Below, piece after piece: positions 589 through 29,316 of a stretch of DNA of 64,000 nt (the stretch's first letter is position 1; every line of letters starts with the position of its first letter). The DNA lies in contig CANMNA010000001.1 in NCBI GenBank assembly GCA_947499075.1, positions 8,615 through 72,614 on the forward strand. Direction: 5' to 3'. The translations under genes were made by a program, and so were the position numbers. The notes beneath the pieces were generated by a model, which was given only the letters and a program-made list of their open reading frames with translations, did no database searches and was not told the DNA's origin. The DNA is from Myxococcales bacterium (GTDB taxonomy: Bacteria > Myxococcota_A > UBA9042).

Positions 589-609
589 CAGACGCACCCT
601 TTATTCAAC
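589..609 (-). repeat. Dispersed core repeat copy 1 (variant GTTGAATAAAGGGTGCGTCTG)
   Basis: 18/21 match to the consensus GTTGAACAAAGGGTGCGTCCG. It overlaps the stop codon of the 601-2697 CDS and lies directly upstream of the mpg start. Confidence 0.85.
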
Positions 610-2697
610 ATCTTGATTTGGCAGGACAATCGCGTACACGTAGCTGGCTTTGGGGGCCCTGAGCCAGCGCGACCGGATGGTCTCGCGCAGGTCCGACCAG
701 GCGCCTTTGGCTACCACGAACTCGGCCAGCAACCGGTCGGCCTCAGCCCTGTCGCCCCGGGCCTTGATGCCCGCCACGCGCTTCATCAGGCCAGCAACCG
801 CTATCGGCATCTTGGCCATGTCGACCTCAAAGCAGCCACCGTCCTGCCCGTTGGCTGCCACCGTGCTAGAACGCCAAGTCACCGCGCCCGCAGCCTGAAG
901 TGCTCCCAGTTGAATCGCCGCCAACTGGCTGTACGGTTTAGGCTTGCCTTGCGCATCGGCCATGCCATTGCTGATATGGCCCATCGCCCATGCCAAATCG
1001 CTGATGTGCGACTTGTCGCGCTCCGCGGCGGTCAGCAGGCCCTTGCCGACCAGCCAATCGGCCAACCACATCGCCGCTGTCTGCGCTTTGAGTTCCTCCA
1101 AAGTCGCAGCCAGTGGCCCACCGAAGACTTGCCGGTCCTGCTTGCCCTCAACGGCGTACTCGTGGGCTGGCCCCAAATTGTGGGCCGCCTCGTGCAGCAC
1201 CGTGCTCATGCGCTGCGGCTCTGGATCCGGCGAAAACTGCTTGTACATCTGGGGGCACATCAGCGACGCCGCTTGCTCGGTCCAGATTGTCCGGCTATCC
1301 GGATCGGTGCCAATGTTGACCATGGCCACGGTGCGGCCCCGGCCTTCGCTCGCGACGGGGCCCCAGTTGGGCAAGCTCTGGCCAATTGTGGCGCCAAATG
1401 GGCTGCGGGAGTCTCCGGCGTTGAGCACAACCTCGATGAAGTCTGGCAAGTGGAACGCGACCTTGCGTGCTTTGTACGGCGCGCCGGCCAGCGCCGCCAA
1501 CGCCTGCTCCATGTCGTTCTTGACCGGGTCGAGCAGCTTTTGCCACTTGCGGCTGGCCTGATCGATGCGCGCAAAGGACACATGGAAGCCAGCCTTTTGG
1601 CTGCACGGCTCGTGGTAGGTCTCGTCGGGGCCGATACGCAGGTAGAATCGCGAGTTGTCGACGGTCATCGCCGCCCAAGTCTCATCGGCCTTGGTCCAAC
1701 TGCCGTCGCGAAACGCTTGTGCCGCAGCCCGAAGGTACGCGCGAAAGGCGTTTTCCGCAGGATCAGTCAGCGCTTTGGCTGCCGCATCCAACTCAGTAGC
1801 GACAGCAGCCATGTCCGCTGCCCAGGCGACGTGATAGGGCACAGCGGAGAGTTGACCGGCCGCGCTGCGCTGCACCGTGACGAACGGTGCCATCAACTGC
1901 GCGCCATCGGGCCGAGCCGCCAGCTTGTCGCAGAACTGTTTGTCCGTTTGCAGGTCGAGCGGATACAACCCGCTGGTCCGCGTTGGGTGGTCGGCCAAAG
2001 CGCTGCAATTGACATCATTTTCGGTCTTGGGCGCCTCACACCATGGGCCCTGGTTGCGCTGAAACAGTGCCCGGCTCGCCGTATCCGTCGCGGGAATTCG
2101 CGCGGCCGTGTCCACGACACCGCTTTGGCGCGCATACAGTCGCTCGACCGTCGCTGCGGCATTCAGCACGTGCTGCACCATCTCCACGGTCCCGTCGCGG
2201 CGCGCTGCATCGGCAGTAAAATCAGTGACCACAACCGTTGGCCGACCCTGTGCCAGCTCCGCGAGTACCGCAGCCTTGCGGCGCTGTTCTGGATCCGCTG
2301 GGTCTGCGGACGGCGGTCGCGAGGGCTTGCGGTTGTCGATAATGGCGACCGCAGCTGCGGTGGCCACCGCGTCCATCGGTTTTGCCTGGTCGGCACGCCA
2401 CAGCACCAGCACTTCGCCGCGGCCACCTGTTGCTGTTGCAGCTTCGAAAAGGGGTACATTGAGCACTGCGGCCGCACTGTTCCACACAGCACGGCTCAAG
2501 ACGGGCGGACCCAGGGTCGGCGTCGCCGCGTTGGCCAAACCCGCAGCGTTTGCGACGGCCGTGAGCGCCACGGCTCCAGCCGGCGGTTCCATCGCGGCGG
2601 TCGGTGCAGGCTCCTGGGCTGCGACCGGCGCGGGCGGGGCAGGTCGGCTGCATCCTGTGAGCAACAAACAGAGAATCAAGCAGTCGCGCAGTGTCAT
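601..2697 (-). CDS. Secreted zinc-metalloprotease-like lipoprotein (HExxH)
   Basis: The track ORF is 601..2928. I chose the internal ATG at 2697 because it gives MTLRDCLILCLLLTGC, a signal peptide plus lipobox. An HEAAHNLGPAHEY metal-binding-type motif is present. Confidence 0.7.
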   Translation of the reverse strand: MTLRDCLILCLLLTGCSRPAPPAPVAAQEPAPTAAMEPPAGAVALTAVANAAGLANAATPTLGPPVLSRAVWNSAAAVLNVPLFEAATATGGRGEVLVLWRADQAKPMDAVATAAAVAIIDNRKPSRPPSADPADPEQRRKAAVLAELAQGRPTVVVTDFTADAARRDGTVEMVQHVLNAAATVERLYARQSGVVDTAARIPATDTASRALFQRNQGPWCEAPKTENDVNCSALADHPTRTSGLYPLDLQTDKQFCDKLAARPDGAQLMAPFVTVQRSAAGQLSAVPYHVAWAADMAAVATELDAAAKALTDPAENAFRAYLRAAAQAFRDGSWTKADETWAAMTVDNSRFYLRIGPDETYHEPCSQKAGFHVSFARIDQASRKWQKLLDPVKNDMEQALAALAGAPYKARKVAFHLPDFIEVVLNAGDSRSPFGATIGQSLPNWGPVASEGRGRTVAMVNIGTDPDSRTIWTEQAASLMCPQMYKQFSPDPEPQRMSTVLHEAAHNLGPAHEYAVEGKQDRQVFGGPLAATLEELKAQTAAMWLADWLVGKGLLTAAERDKSHISDLAWAMGHISNGMADAQGKPKPYSQLAAIQLGALQAAGAVTWRSSTVAANGQDGGCFEVDMAKMPIAVAGLMKRVAGIKARGDRAEADRLLAEFVVAKGAWSDLRETIRSRWLRAPKASYVYAIVLPNQDVE

Positions 2698-2807
2698 GGT
2701 CGGGTCCAGCAGGCCAGCAGGCCGCTGCGGCAGGCTACGCCGGGGCAGCCGCAACGGGCAAGTCCCCAGCGGTGGATTGCCGTGCCCGATGGCGAGAACC
2801 TCAAATT

Positions 2808-27448: not shown

Positions 27449-29143
27449 TCAATCGCATAGCGGCGCGGCGGCCGGGTACGGAAACTGGCTCTCTGGATGG
27501 GCCACGGCGTCGATCGCCCCGGCCGATGTGCCTTCACAGCGCAACGCGTCTAAATAGTCAGCCAAAAATGGTGCCGCCTTGCCAGTGTTGACTTCGTTGG
27601 TCACCTTGCACTTGGTGGCCTGCCACGTGCGTCGCGTGTAGCCGCGCTTGCCCGCACCGACCTGCAGGCGCGTGCTCGACACCGCGAACAACGTATTCTT
27701 GGCACCCACCGCGGGGTTTTGCGCAAGCTGCCACAACAGCGAGGCCACGTGATTCTCGTCCTGCATCTGCAGCAAGCCGAGTTGCGCGTTCGGCTTGACC
27801 AGCAGCTTGCCCTTGCCGTATTTCTGGGCGCCCAAGTCGATCCAGAAGAAGGATCCCTGCTGCTTGTCGTAGTAGTACTTATTGTCTCGGATGATCGACG
27901 AAAACCCTGTCGCCCACCCCTCGCTCCACGCTTGACCCGGAAAAGTTGGCACGCCCAAGCAGTGTGGCCCGCCCTCGTTGGGGCTCGTACTGAAAGCGGC
28001 CATCACCCAATGGCCCAATTCGTGGGCGGTGACTGGATCGGCCCAGTAGCTTTGGTCTTGGCTGTCCATGGGCAACCACGCCTGCGCCAGCACATCGAAG
28101 CTACTGACCGAAGTGGGCCAGTCGCTAAAGCACGCGCCGCAGTCCCACTCGGTGTTGGGTCGCATCCAGACCACCAGCGGCAAGGTCACGCCCGCCAGCG
28201 TGGCATTGGCCTTGGCATGGGCGAACCGCAAAATGTCAAACACCCGCAGCACGCCGCTGCCTTGCGCGCGCTTGACGACGACCGTACTGCCGGGCAGCGT
28301 CTTGGTCGGATCGATCTGCCACGACCACGGCTTGGCGTCTGCGCCACTTTGGGCTGCGAGATCTGTATCTTGAACACCGTCGCCGACTGCAGGCTGCGCG
28401 ATGAGGTAGTCGAGCTTGGATTTGTCCTCGCCAAGCTTGGCTGCGAGCACTGCGATCGTCACCGCGCCCGATGCGCCGCTGATGTCCAGCGCCACGGTTC
28501 CAAAGCTGTCCGCGACCGCGGAGTCGATGATCGTGCCCTCGCCAGCCGTGTCGAACGCCAGTGCCAGCACACCCTGGGCCGCCACGTCAGTCGCGCCTGT
28601 CGCCCAGTCTGTCATGGCGTCGTTGGGCCCCAGCGCTTCGTACTGGACCGTGACCGTGTACAGGTCTTTGCCGGTGCCGCTGTCGCAAAACGCGCTGATG
28701 GCGGCGCTCTTGCACGGCGACCCGCACGGCACGCTCTGCCACACGCCATCGTTGTCGCAGTACTCCAAGGTGGTGGCGTTGCTGCAGCGGGTGTCTTCTG
28801 GCGTGCACTTGCCCGCTAAGTCGGTGCAAGACGCTTGCCCGTCCACCACGGCACAGGTCGCAAACTTGCCGCAGCTGTAGGTCACTACCTTGGGCTCGCC
28901 ATATCCCGTCGGCAGTAGGCACCGGCGCACTTGCCCTTGAGCAGTGCACTCTCCTTGGGCGCTGACCGACCCGCAGGCGCTACCGGCCAAGTCGACCGGT
29001 TGGTCCGCGACTTTGCTCGCCTCGGGGTCCTCAAACAGCACTTCAGCGATCGCGTTGCCGGTGCCGGGCGGCAAGTCGCACGCAGCAGCACACAACAATC
29101 CCAATACTGCCAAGGCCTTGACCTGATTGCTTGCCTGCGTCAT
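27449..29143 (-). CDS. Secreted HExxH metalloprotease-like lipoprotein
   Basis: The signal and lipobox read MTQASNQVKALAVLGLLCAAAC. A Cys-rich N-terminal region is followed by the motif TAHELGHWVMAAF. Confidence 0.7.
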   Translation of the reverse strand: MTQASNQVKALAVLGLLCAAACDLPPGTGNAIAEVLFEDPEASKVADQPVDLAGSACGSVSAQGECTAQGQVRRCLLPTGYGEPKVVTYSCGKFATCAVVDGQASCTDLAGKCTPEDTRCSNATTLEYCDNDGVWQSVPCGSPCKSAAISAFCDSGTGKDLYTVTVQYEALGPNDAMTDWATGATDVAAQGVLALAFDTAGEGTIIDSAVADSFGTVALDISGASGAVTIAVLAAKLGEDKSKLDYLIAQPAVGDGVQDTDLAAQSGADAKPWSWQIDPTKTLPGSTVVVKRAQGSGVLRVFDILRFAHAKANATLAGVTLPLVVWMRPNTEWDCGACFSDWPTSVSSFDVLAQAWLPMDSQDQSYWADPVTAHELGHWVMAAFSTSPNEGGPHCLGVPTFPGQAWSEGWATGFSSIIRDNKYYYDKQQGSFFWIDLGAQKYGKGKLLVKPNAQLGLLQMQDENHVASLLWQLAQNPAVGAKNTLFAVSSTRLQVGAGKRGYTRRTWQATKCKVTNEVNTGKAAPFLADYLDALRCEGTSAGAIDAVAHPESQFPYPAAAPLCD

Positions 29144-29296
29144 AGCCTGCTCCCCTGCTTGGCTAGCTTGCCCGTGATTAGCAGCAGCTGCAAGTCGACG
29201 CGCGCTTGCCTCACGCGGCGTCAGATGCGATCGCCGGTGGCGTCAAGTGGCCACCTGCCGCCGCCAGTGTCCCTATATCTCCACACAGAACAGCAT

Positions 29297-29316
29297 GTTG
29301 AACAAAGGGTGCGTCC
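29297..29316 (+). repeat. Dispersed core repeat copy 10 (GTTGAACAAAGGGTGCGTCC)
   Basis: An exact 20-nt core, about 97 nt upstream of the predicted promoter at 29413. Confidence 0.9.

What the first reader, a model, noticed from the sequence alone, without database searches (positions are those of the whole stretch)
589..29316. Dispersed 21-nt core repeat GTTGAACAAAGGGTGCGTCCG: 11 copies in 30 kb, nearly all at gene ends
**Copies.** Core coordinates, with the strand on which the core reads GTTGAAC...:
- 589-609 (-)
- 6887-6907 (+)
- 10254-10274 (+)
- 11061-11081 (+)
- 13392-13412 (-)
- 16563-16583 (+), plus a tandem partial copy at 16602-16618 (+)
- 20935-20956 (-)
- 21069-21088 (-)
- 24955-24975 (+)
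- 29297-29316 (+)
- a possible decayed remnant, GGCGTCCGCAAT, at 26288-26299

**Conservation.** Six copies carry AACAAAGGGTGCGTCC with no change, which is tighter than an ordinary operator family.

**Flanks.** The core sits in short AT-rich arms that contrast with the GC-rich background. Copies at 589 and 6887 share about 25 nt more of left arm (ATTGTCCT..CAAAATCAA..G). Both fit the IHF consensus WATCAANNNNTTR across the arm/core boundary.

**Placement.** Ten of the eleven are intergenic. Six overlap a stop codon or lie within about 25 nt of one (stops at 601, 6862, 13387, 20927, 21100 and 24952). The 13392 copy is bracketed by CTAG (13384-13387 and 13412-13415). I found no copy in 30-64 kb.

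**What it is not.** The core has no internal dyad, so it is not a hairpin terminator or a textbook REP. TTGAAC is followed by a TA-rich hexamer after only about 14 nt, too short for a sigma70 spacer.

**Effect on the ORF track.** The core is open in five of six frames. That is why RTHPLFN, VEQRVRP, LNKGCV and GRTLCST recur in spurious track ORFs.

**Inference.** It is either a mobile or recombination-spread extragenic element, or a very strongly selected protein/RNA recognition site. One window cannot decide between these.
Basis: partly seen in the sequence, partly recalled or inferred. Interest (0 to 1): 0.8.

Follow-up and report, generated by a model that had tools for sequence, protein, structure and literature searches.

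The report
Dispersed repeat tied to HUH transposase

Summary
There are 11 significant copies of GTTGAACAAAGGGTGCGTCCG between 589 and 29317, where shuffles give about 0. A degenerate 12th copy lies at 9797-9817, and a 13th lies just left of the window.

The conserved element runs from about -11 to +4 around the core, roughly 36-40 nt. Core identity is 0.90, while the AT-rich arms reach only 0.37-0.39.

It encodes a Y1 HUH tyrosine-transposase-like protein with an invariant SNHYH motif and an invariant Y123-x3-Q127. The best structural matches are IS608/ISDra2 TnpA and the E. coli REP-associated transposase.

In six independent loci this gene sits between inverted copies of a lineage-specific version of the repeat. 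One copy lies 131-188 nt upstream and one about 54 nt downstream. Homology between two such loci stops at the outer edges of the repeats. A relative lacks a 48-nt repeat-bearing segment directly after the AAA-ATPase stop codon, giving a filled versus empty site.

No hairpin, promoter, terminator or Rfam match was found.

Best reading: a REP/RAYT-like system with a non-palindromic repeat, a new variant of a known kind. Genome-wide abundance could not be tested.

The parts
583..620 (-). Repeat copy. The core is 589-609, GTTGAATAAAGGGTGCGTCTG. It overlaps the TAA stop (601-603) of the 698-aa gene.
   Evidence: E 2.9e-10; gene call
6876..6913 (+). Repeat copy with a perfect 21-mer core at 6887-6907. 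It lies 25 nt after the release-factor stop (6862) and 76 nt before the gcvT start (6983). It shares about 25 nt of left arm with the copy at 589.
9797..9817 (-). Degenerate copy, GTTGAACAAGCGGGCGCTCGT. The TGA inside GTTGAAC is the stop codon of the HUH gene. This is the downstream inverted end of the HUH unit.
   Evidence: Sequence. The nhmmer hit is weak (E=2). Its position matches the downstream copies in L016, L017, L024 and L028.
9814..10929 (-). Y1 HUH tyrosine-transposase-like gene of 371 aa (P0001). It has the HUH motif H62-Y63-H64, then Y123-x3-Q127, and a conserved C-terminal helical region with an FP..TF motif.
10243..10280 (+). Repeat copy inside the HUH gene, antisense to it. The core is 10254-10274, GTTGAACAAAGGGTGCGTTTG, and it encodes NAPFVQR. 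It sits at a position that carries a related DNA box in homologues.
11050..11087 (+). Repeat copy 131 nt upstream of the HUH start and antisense to the gene. The core is 11061-11081, GTTGAACAAAGGGTGGGTTTG. This is the upstream inverted end of the HUH unit. It also lies 114 nt upstream of the AAA-ATPase start.
   Evidence: the same geometry appears in five other loci
13386..13435 (-). Repeat copy with a perfect core at 13392-13412. It sits within a 48-nt segment (13388-13435) that follows the AAA-ATPase stop directly and is absent from the 88%-identical relative L023. This is the filled site.
16552..16589 (+). Repeat copy with a perfect core at 16563-16583. It lies between the start of the 342-aa gene and the stop of the M28 peptidase gene.
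16598..16624 (+). Partial tandem copy, AACAAAGGGTGCGTCCG plus its right arm. The string TCCGTAATTCT occurs three times across 16580-16624.
   Evidence: E 8.8e-6
20932..20956 (-). Degenerate copy, GTTCTGAACAAAGGATGCGTCGG. It lies 8 nt after the PmbA stop (20927), between convergent genes.
   Evidence: (E 1.1e-3)
21062..21099 (-). Repeat copy with core 21068-21088, CTTGAACAAAGGGCGCGTACG. It lies 12 nt after the MFS transporter stop (21100), between convergent genes.
24944..24981 (+). Repeat copy with a perfect core at 24955-24975, 3 nt after the GH15-family gene stop (24952).
29286..29323 (+). Repeat copy with core 29297-29317 and one mismatch at the last base. It lies in the intergenic region upstream of the 564-aa (-) gene that starts at 29143.

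Best explanation
The repeat is the cognate DNA site of a Y1 HUH tyrosine-transposase-like protein encoded at 9814-10929 (-).

**The unit.** The gene and two inverted copies of the repeat form a discrete unit of about 1.3 kb. Its ends are at 11061-11081 and 9797-9817.

**The dispersed copies.** The other copies are single-site elements of about 36-48 nt. Each consists of an AT-rich left arm, the 21-nt core and a short AT-rich right arm, which is the same as the terminal part of the unit.

**Proposed mechanism.** I infer that the HUH protein binds the core and nicks and rejoins DNA at or near its 3' (GTCCG|TAATTC) boundary. This would copy or move these short elements into permissive intergenic DNA, very often immediately after stop codons. 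The system therefore works like a REP/RAYT system: a largely single-copy, probably domesticated transposase with satellite repeats.

**How it differs from classical REP/RAYT.** The repeat is not a palindrome, and the protein is a divergent, longer family.

**Shown.**
- The repeat family and its extent.
- The HUH fold and conserved catalytic residues.
- The fixed inverted geometry around the gene in six loci.
- Co-variation of the repeat sequence with the protein lineage.
- Unit boundaries at the repeat edges.
- One filled versus empty site.

**Inferred.**
- That this protein is the enzyme that binds and cuts the core.
- The position of the cut.
- That single-site copies are themselves mobile.
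For: 1. **The repeat is real and sharply bounded.** There are 11 significant copies against about 0 expected. Information content rises from -11 to +4.
2. **The protein is a Y1 HUH enzyme.**
   - In 13 homologues S60-N61-H62-Y63-H64, Y123 and Q127 are invariant.
   - It gives weak, full-domain matches to NCBIfam REP_Tyr_transpos (E 3e-6, profile positions 4-133 of 146).
   - Pfam Y1_Tnp matches 9 of 13 members.
   - The AlphaFold model (pLDDT 74.6) matches only Y1 transposases at the top of the PDB search. These are ISDra2, IS608 and IS200 TnpA, and 4er8, the E. coli REP-associated transposase, which gives the longest alignment (158 columns, TM 0.61).
   - JGI names relatives of the family 'REP element-mobilizing transposase RayT'.
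3. **The geometry is fixed.** In the window, L016, L017/L019, L024, L025 and L028 an antisense copy lies 131-188 nt upstream of the start. In all but L025 a sense copy also lies 53-55 nt past the stop, or on the stop in the window.
4. **The repeat co-varies with the protein lineage**.
   - Window: GTTGAACAAAGGGTGCGTCCG.
   - L016: CTGAACAAAGGTAGGGTCC.
   - L017 and L024: TTGAACAATGGGGGGGAACGTC. Their proteins are 74% identical.
   - L028: GTTGTTAAATGGGTGCGTAC.
   - L025: GTTGAACGCGGGTGCCCA.
5. **The unit has defined edges.** L017 and L024 are about 78-80% identical from the outer edge of the upstream repeat to just past the downstream repeat, and unrelated outside. Their neighbouring genes differ.
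6. **There is a filled and an empty site.** A 48-nt repeat-bearing segment follows the AAA-ATPase stop in the window and is absent in L023. L023 has its own copy at a different place upstream of the same gene.
7. **Short tandem duplications straddle the 3' edge of the core.**
   - TCCGTAATTCT occurs three times at 16580-16624.
   - CCGAATTAT occurs twice.
   - GCAAGTCC is repeated in L017, and CGTCTGGGCG occurs twice in L024.
   
   These fit repeated nicking and rejoining or slippage at that edge.
8. **The unit is probably single-copy in this genome.** The k141 assembly ran through the 1.3-kb unit on a 65-77 kb contig, and the protein is on record only for this locus.
Against: - **No hairpin.** Known Y1 transposases and RAYTs recognise DNA hairpins, and this repeat has none.
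- **No inverted doublets.** The two doublets in the window are direct repeats, so REPIN-type mobilisation does not apply.
- **Curated thresholds are not met.** The protein scores 27 bits against a cutoff of 80 for the RAYT model, and 20.4 against 23 for Pfam Y1_Tnp.
- **The arms are poorly conserved.** The core (0.90) is far better conserved than the arms (0.37-0.39). Recent copying of a 40-48-nt element would not give that pattern. It fits selection or gene conversion acting on a binding site instead.
- **Only one filled/empty site was found,** and its ends are uncertain by a few bases.
- **Genome-wide abundance is unknown.**
   - The exact 18- and 19-mers were found only as chance singletons in the GTDB representative genomes, JGI metagenomes and IMG/VR. 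The source genome is not in those collections.
   - All known copies lie within about 20 kb of the HUH gene.
- **The gene is not always single-copy.** Two 87%-identical paralogues occur in one MAG.
Confidence: 0.65

Rival explanations
1. The core is a binding site for a host DNA-binding protein, such as an IHF-like nucleoid protein or a transcription factor. It would be kept at many intergenic sites by selection. Under this reading the HUH unit merely carries the same site at its ends, and the dispersed copies are not mobile.
For: - The core is much better conserved than the arms: 0.90 against 0.37-0.39.
- The left-arm consensus AAAATCAG-N4-TTG has the form of the IHF consensus. Three copies match WATCAR-N4-TTG exactly, against 0.63 matches expected in the whole window.
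- The segment TGAACAAWGG is conserved across lineages whose HUH proteins are only 41-48% identical.
Against: - The site is asymmetric and 21 nt long.
- It occurs in both orientations relative to genes, between convergent genes, and on top of stop codons. This does not fit an operator or a promoter element.
- The 3' half of the core changes with the HUH lineage.
- The copies mark the exact ends of the HUH unit.
- A whole 48-nt segment is present in the window and absent in a relative.
- Only 3 of 11 copies match the strict IHF form.
Confidence: 0.15
2. The HUH unit is, or was, an ordinary insertion sequence with terminal inverted repeats. The dispersed copies would then be dead solo ends left by decayed or deleted full-length copies. 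They would be neither mobilised on their own nor functional.
For: - The unit has inverted ends and discrete boundaries, and it sits in different gene neighbourhoods in different genomes.
- One MAG has two 87%-identical paralogues.
- Dispersed copies equal the terminal part of the unit.
Against: - Five of the 13 copies have a perfect 21-mer core and six a perfect 16-mer, while their flanks are unrelated. Dead remnants should decay evenly.
- No copy carries any trace of HUH coding sequence next to it.
- About a dozen solo ends against one intact unit within 40 kb would need a dozen independent insertions and precise deletions.
- The inserted segment after the AAA-ATPase stop is only 48 nt, with clean flanks.
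Confidence: 0.12
3. The core is a transcription signal (promoter, terminator or attenuator), or it encodes or targets a small RNA.
For: - The copies are intergenic and close to gene ends.
- TTGAAC resembles a -35 hexamer.
Against: - No sigma-70-type promoter or intrinsic-terminator match falls on any copy.
- There is no stable fold.
- No Rfam family matches in the window.
- Orientation relative to the flanking transcripts is mixed, and two copies lie between convergent genes.
Confidence: 0.03

Closest known systems
REP/REPIN-RAYT systems (E. coli TnpA_REP with REP/BIME; Pseudomonas fluorescens RAYTs with REPINs)
   Same: - A Y1 HUH protein, apparently single-copy on this contig, is flanked by inverted copies of a short repeat.
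- The repeat is over-represented in extragenic DNA, mostly at gene 3' ends.
- The repeat sequence is lineage-specific and co-varies with the protein.
- The PDB match with the longest alignment is the RAYT structure 4er8.
- The defining features used here are those listed in PMC5581495.
   Different: - The repeat has no palindrome and no GTAG-headed hairpin.
- There are no inverted doublets.
- The protein is about 350-400 aa with a conserved extra C-terminal region, and it scores far below the curated RAYT model cutoff.
- A further copy of the box lies inside the coding sequence.
- All known copies cluster within about 20 kb of the gene.
- The host is an uncultured Myxococcota-like lineage. No paper linking RAYTs to that phylum was found.
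IS200/IS605 family insertion sequences (IS608, ISDra2)
   Same: - The same Y1 HUH fold gives the top Foldseek hits.
- The HUH motif and the Y-x3-Q arrangement of the nucleophile and metal ligand are present. That this arrangement defines the IS608 active site rests on my knowledge of the literature.
- The upstream and in-gene boxes are direct repeats about 800 bp apart, which resembles the left-end/right-end orientation.
- No target duplication is seen at the filled site.
   Different: - IS200/IS605 elements have subterminal hairpins and no terminal inverted repeats. They are usually multi-copy as whole elements.
- Here the ends are inverted repeats without hairpins.
- The full unit looks single-copy, and only about 40-nt single sites are multiplied.
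IHF-site-bearing BIMEs of E. coli (RIP/RIB elements) (from my own knowledge, not tested here)
   Same: It is a short extragenic repeat whose AT-rich arm has the form WATCAA-N4-TTR at the consensus level.
   Different: - Only 3 of 11 copies match strictly.
- No binding data exist.
- In E. coli the IHF site lies between two REP hairpins. Here it would overlap the 5' end of a non-palindromic core.

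Membership tests
REP/REPIN-RAYT system | Associated gene encodes a Y1 HUH tyrosine transposase fold with an HUH motif and a catalytic Tyr | tested here: met
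   - SNHYH, Y123 and Q127 are invariant in 13 homologues.
- The top Foldseek hits are all Y1 transposases, including RAYT 4er8.
- Model pLDDT is 74.6, and above 84 over most of residues 31-90.
REP/REPIN-RAYT system | Protein reaches the curated score of the RAYT / Y1_Tnp models | tested here: not met
   - NF047646 REP_Tyr_transpos gives 27.2 bits against a cutoff of 80.
- PF01797 gives 20.4 bits against a cutoff of 23.
REP/REPIN-RAYT system | Gene flanked in extragenic DNA by the repeat, in inverted orientation | tested here: met
   - This holds in the window (11061+ and 9797-9817-), L016, L017/L019, L024 and L028.
- L025 has the upstream copy only.
REP/REPIN-RAYT system | Flanking 16-mer strongly over-represented across the replicon, in extragenic space | tested here: inconclusive
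   - The known 72.6 kb holds 13 copies, where shuffles of the 64-kb window give about 0.
- The rest of the genome is not available. The scans did not contain the source genome.
REP/REPIN-RAYT system | Repeat is an imperfect palindrome (hairpin), usually arranged as inverted doublets (REPINs) | tested here: not met
   - Nine copies folded as ssDNA give z-scores from -0.75 to +1.33.
- The doublets 16563/16598 and 20936/21068 are direct repeats.
- A palindromic variant does exist in one related lineage, L022.
REP/REPIN-RAYT system | Single-copy, vertically inherited gene | tested here: inconclusive
   - There is one copy on a 65-77 kb contig that was assembled through the unit.
- No plasmid matches were found.
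- Neighbouring genes differ in every locus.
- One MAG has two 87%-identical paralogues.
IS200/IS605 insertion sequence | Subterminal hairpins at both ends, no terminal inverted repeats, whole element multi-copy | tested here: not met
   - The ends are 23-35-nt inverted repeats.
- No hairpins are present.
- No second full-length copy is seen in the window or on record for this protein.
MITE of a DDE transposon | Terminal inverted repeats within the short element and a target-site duplication | tested here: not met
   - The 36-48-nt element has no internal inverted repeat.
- No duplication flanks the 48-nt segment at the filled site.
IHF binding site | Match to WATCAANNNNTTR with an AT-rich upstream tract | tested here: inconclusive
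   - The left-arm consensus is AAAATCAG-N4-TTG.
- A strict match holds in 3 of 11 copies.
- Binding cannot be tested here.
Sigma-70 promoter / intrinsic terminator / known RNA family | Two hexamers at 16-18 nt spacing; a GC-rich stem followed by a T-run; or an Rfam model match | tested here: not met
   - No promoter-like or terminator-like site overlaps any copy.
- There are 0 Rfam matches at gathering score.

The most novel reading that the evidence does not exclude
This would be a previously undescribed branch of Y1 HUH enzymes, with about 190 representative clusters at E<=1e-30. Its proposed properties are as follows.
- It recognises a linear, non-hairpin 21-nt site.
- It keeps three copies of that site in a fixed geometry around and inside its own gene. 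The internal copy is written into the coding sequence. It is held at the DNA level, as shown by the G-run/C-run flips that turn GG into PP or AP at the same codons.
- It seeds single-site elements of about 40 nt, preferentially right after stop codons and close to its own gene (local hopping).

This would be a REP/RAYT-like symbiosis with a different DNA-recognition logic.
Probability: 0.3. Interest if true: 0.8.

Novelty: new variant of a known kind. Interest (0 to 1): 0.62.

Why it matters
REP/RAYT systems are the best-known case of a transposase domesticated together with a population of short repeats. So far they are defined by hairpin-forming palindromes, and Y1 HUH enzymes are understood to read hairpins.

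This finding shows a lineage in which the same gene-plus-inverted-flank architecture goes with a strictly non-palindromic, highly conserved 21-nt site. If that holds up, it would widen the definition. It would also give a tractable test of how a Y1 enzyme can recognise linear DNA.

The finding supplies several practical things:
- A concrete candidate function for a sizeable family of unannotated 'hypothetical proteins' in Myxococcota-like MAGs.
- An explanation for a source of spurious ORFs and mis-called gene ends in those genomes.
- A short diagnostic repeat for strain typing, and filled/empty-site markers for the lineage.

Tried and rejected
- **Exact-pattern scans.** GTDB representative genomes (19-mer), JGI metagenomes and IMG/VR (18-mer) gave only chance-level singletons in unrelated contigs.
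- **Rfam at gathering score, and tRNA/tmRNA.** Nothing was found.
- **Sigma-70 promoter and intrinsic terminator scans.** No site overlaps a copy.
- **Hairpin or REP-type fold.** Rejected.
Not detected.
- **CTAG bracketing of the 13392 copy.** One CTAG contains the gene's stop codon, and I found no recurrence at other copies.
- **Orthologous-region comparisons.**
  - L020 and L021 (AAA-ATPase 78% identical) are not syntenic and have no copies.
  - L026 (PmbA 75% identical) is not syntenic downstream and has no copies.
  - Only L023 gave a usable filled/empty site.
- **PDB sequence searches with the family profile and with the N-terminal domain.** No informative hit. Only the fold search worked.
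- **tblastn against plasmids.** No match.
- **Left extension of the source contig (8.6 kb).** It yielded one more copy at the window edge and none beyond.
- **A clustering statistic for 0-30 kb against 30-64 kb.** I did not compute one. My crude GC3 gene map misses genes, and 31-49 kb is a tightly packed translation-gene block.

Full report
**1. The observation**

The 16-mer AACAAAGGGTGCGTCC occurs 10 times with up to 2 mismatches, against 0.09 expected from shuffles. The 21-mer occurs 10 times with up to 3 mismatches, against 0.00 expected. A profile built from nine copies with their flanks finds 11 significant sites, all between 583 and 29322. Nothing significant lies in 30-64 kb.

The stop-codon proximity is also correct when checked against the gene calls that come with the source contig. 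The supposed remnant at 26288 is not detectable.

Aligning the copies shows that conservation rises at about -11 and falls after about +4. Mean pairwise identity is as follows:

| Segment | Pairwise identity | AT content |
|---|---|---|
| Core | 0.90 | 46% |
| 20 nt to the left | 0.37 | 58% |
| 8 nt to the right | 0.39 | 71% |
| Further out | 0.28-0.30 | 38% |

**2. Source and setting**

The window is part of a metagenome contig, ENA ERZ27280213 k141_1311616. The same proteins are also on record on a 77-kb NCBI contig.

It is a bacterial chromosome of about 63% GC. It carries release factor, gcvT/gcvH, an AAA ATPase, an acyl-CoA dehydrogenase, an M28 peptidase, TldD/PmbA, an MFS transporter, a GH15 protein and EF-G. 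A tightly packed block of short, same-strand genes follows EF-G, apparently a translation-gene cluster.

Where sources name the homologues, they call them Myxococcales, Deltaproteobacteria or Myxococcota MAGs.

The exact core is absent from the GTDB representatives, JGI metagenomes and IMG/VR, apart from chance singletons. The motif is therefore lineage-specific, and the source genome is not in those collections.

**3.

The only copy inside an ORF (10254) lies in the gene at 9814-10929 (-). Its product has 23 full-length homologues at 37-53% identity. In an alignment of 13 of them, S60-N61-H62-Y63-H64, Y123 and Q127 are invariant.

- It gives weak but full-domain matches to NCBIfam 'REP-associated tyrosine transposase' (E 3e-6, 27 bits, cutoff 80).
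- It also matches Pfam Y1_Tnp in 9 of 13 members.
- An AlphaFold model (pLDDT 74.6) finds only Y1 HUH transposases at the top of the PDB search. These are ISDra2, IS608 and IS200 TnpA, and 4er8, the E. coli REP-associated transposase. The last gives the longest alignment.
- H-x-H plus Y-x3-Q is the active-site arrangement of IS608 TnpA. This point comes from my knowledge of the literature and was not tested here.
- A profile search finds 194 representative clusters at E<=1e-30. JGI names some of these relatives 'REP element-mobilizing transposase RayT'.

**4. Fixed architecture around that gene**

I fetched five more loci that encode homologues: L016, L017 (the same locus as L019), L024, L025 and L028. 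In every one, a lineage-specific version of the repeat lies antisense upstream of the start. In four of the five, a sense copy also lies just past the stop.

| Locus | Upstream antisense copy (nt before start) | Downstream sense copy (nt past stop) |
|---|---|---|
| Window | 131 | overlaps the stop; its TGA is the stop codon (copy 9797-9817) |
| L016 | 142 | 53 |
| L017 | 146 | 54 |
| L024 | 146 | 53 |
| L025 | 188 | none found |
| L028 | 144 | 55 |

The repeat changes with the protein lineage.

| Locus | Repeat variant |
|---|---|
| Window | GTTGAACAAAGGGTGCGTCCG |
| L016 | CTGAACAAAGGTAGGGTCC |
| L017 and L024 (proteins 74% identical) | TTGAACAATGGGGGGGAACGTC |
| L028 | GTTGTTAAATGGGTGCGTAC |
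| L025 | GTTGAACGCGGGTGCCCA |

L017 and L024 have different neighbouring genes. Even so, they are 78-80% identical from the outer edge of the upstream repeat to just beyond the downstream repeat, and unrelated outside that span. The gene and its two inverted repeats therefore form a discrete unit of about 1.3-1.4 kb. Each of these loci also has one to three further solo copies of its own variant in intergenic DNA.

**5. Evidence for insertion**

L023 is a relative whose AAA ATPase is 88% identical. It aligns with the window through the end of that gene and again from 'CCG..TTGCCG' onwards. It lacks the 48 nt GATACGGACGCACCCTTTGTTCAACTAGCTGAATTTACAGCGACCGTT that follow the stop codon in the window. 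No target duplication is visible.

Upstream of the same gene, L023 has its own copy (GTTGAACAAAGGCCACCTCCG) at a different position from the window's copy. It has no HUH gene there.

Other relatives were not syntenic enough to give more sites.

**6. What the repeat is not**

- Nine copies folded as single-stranded DNA are no more stable than shuffles, with z-scores from -0.75 to +1.33.
- No sigma-70-like promoter or intrinsic terminator falls on a copy.
- Rfam has nothing.
- Orientation relative to the flanking genes is mixed, and two copies lie between convergent genes.
- The IHF idea survives only at the consensus level. The left arm reads AAAATCAG-N4-TTG, but a strict match holds in only 3 of 11 copies.

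**7. Mechanism**

The best-supported reading is a REP/RAYT-like system. A Y1 HUH enzyme has a cognate site that forms the inverted ends of its own gene unit and is also multiplied as short single-site elements.

Short tandem duplications straddle the 3' edge of the core in four copies:
- TCCGTAATTCT, three times, at 16580-16624
- CCGAATTAT, twice
- GCAAGTCC, repeated, in L017
- CGTCTGGGCG, twice, in L024

I read these as footprints of nicking and rejoining or slippage at that edge. I therefore place the likely cleavage site there. This is inference.

Three things argue against a simple 'recently copied mobile element':
- The core is much better conserved than the arms.
- There is no hairpin.
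- There are no inverted doublets.

Selection, or gene conversion, on the core as a protein-binding site probably acts as well. The rivals are a host-protein site, dead solo ends of an IS, and a transcription signal. The report sections weigh each of them.

**8. Comparison with known systems**

The defining features of RAYT systems are listed in PMC5581495:
- a Y1 protein that is typically single-copy
- REP/REPIN copies in its flanking extragenic space
- over-represented flanking 16-mers
- palindromic REPs

| Feature | Result here |
|---|---|
| Y1 HUH fold | met |
| Inverted flanks | met |
| Local over-representation of the repeat | met |
| Palindrome or REPIN doublets | not met |
| Curated model scores | not met |
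| Genome-wide abundance | could not be tested |
| Strict single-copy status | could not be tested; one MAG has two 87%-identical paralogues |

It works like a REP/RAYT system, but I do not file it as a standard member. It is also not an IS200/IS605 element, because it has inverted ends, no hairpins and no multi-copy full-length unit.

I found no paper that links RAYTs to Myxococcota.

**9. Verdict**

The mobile-element branch holds, but the key gene was missed.
- Novelty: new variant of a known kind.
- Interest: 0.62.
- The main gap is the rest of the genome.

Noticed in passing
window 10243-10280; L016 10665-10694; L017, L024 and L028 at the equivalent codons: Every HUH homologue carries, at the same place in its coding sequence (just before the variable linker), a box that reads S-run + 2-3 nt + TGTTCAA on the sense strand.
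- The encoded peptide flips between GGxVQ, PPFIQ, GPLVQ and APFVQ. The G-run or C-run therefore looks constrained at the DNA level rather than the protein level.
- In the window and in L016 the in-gene box is nearly identical to intergenic copies: 19 of 21 in the window, and 28 of 30 with L016 8247-8276.
   Followed up: partly
window 16580-16624; L027 12725-12745; L017 11190-11215; L024 about 9800-9835: Short tandem duplications of 8-12 nt straddle the 3' edge of the core in four copies: TCCGTAATTCT three times, CCGAATTAT twice, GCAAGTCC repeated, and CGTCTGGGCG twice. They may be footprints of nicking or slippage at that boundary.
   Followed up: partly
L022 3837-3870, 3900-3933, 4431-4460: A relative whose AAA ATPase is 82% identical carries a palindromic version of the repeat, CTTGAACAAATGGTGGATCTGTTCAAGG. 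It has an 8-bp stem, TTGAACA/TGTTCAA.
- Two copies are full and one is a half copy, all within 1 kb downstream of the AAA gene.
- Hairpin-forming and non-hairpin versions therefore coexist in the wider lineage.
   Followed up: no
window -35 to 29317 (13 copies) against 30-64 kb and the 8.5 kb left of the window (none): All known copies lie within about 11 kb on one side and 19 kb on the other side of the HUH gene.
- This could reflect local hopping.
- It could also reflect only the lack of permissive intergenic space in the translation-gene block at 31-49 kb.
   Followed up: partly
window 589-640 and 6857-6907: These two copies share about 25 nt of extra left arm (ATTGTCCT...CAAAATCAA), unlike all the others. 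They look like a younger sub-family or a duplication of an already inserted copy.
   Followed up: no
window 30000-42000: AT skew is strongly positive (0.12-0.25) across the EF-G gene and the block of short same-strand genes that follows it, all on the + strand. The rest of the window is near zero or negative.
   Followed up: no
window 3046-4590 (-); L016 16190-18721; L024 537-4517; L025 455-8952: Large Cys-rich repeat proteins matching Pfam Dicty_CTDC recur near the HUH loci and in the window. In L016 their coding repeats dominate the generic repeat search. They are probably just a lineage hallmark.
   Followed up: no
P0019 and P0020 (Myxococcales bacterium MAG, locus tags EXR77_08945 and EXR77_07340): Two 87%-identical HUH paralogues lie on different contigs of one MAG. 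The gene is therefore not always single-copy, and the whole unit may still transpose in some lineages.
   Followed up: partly
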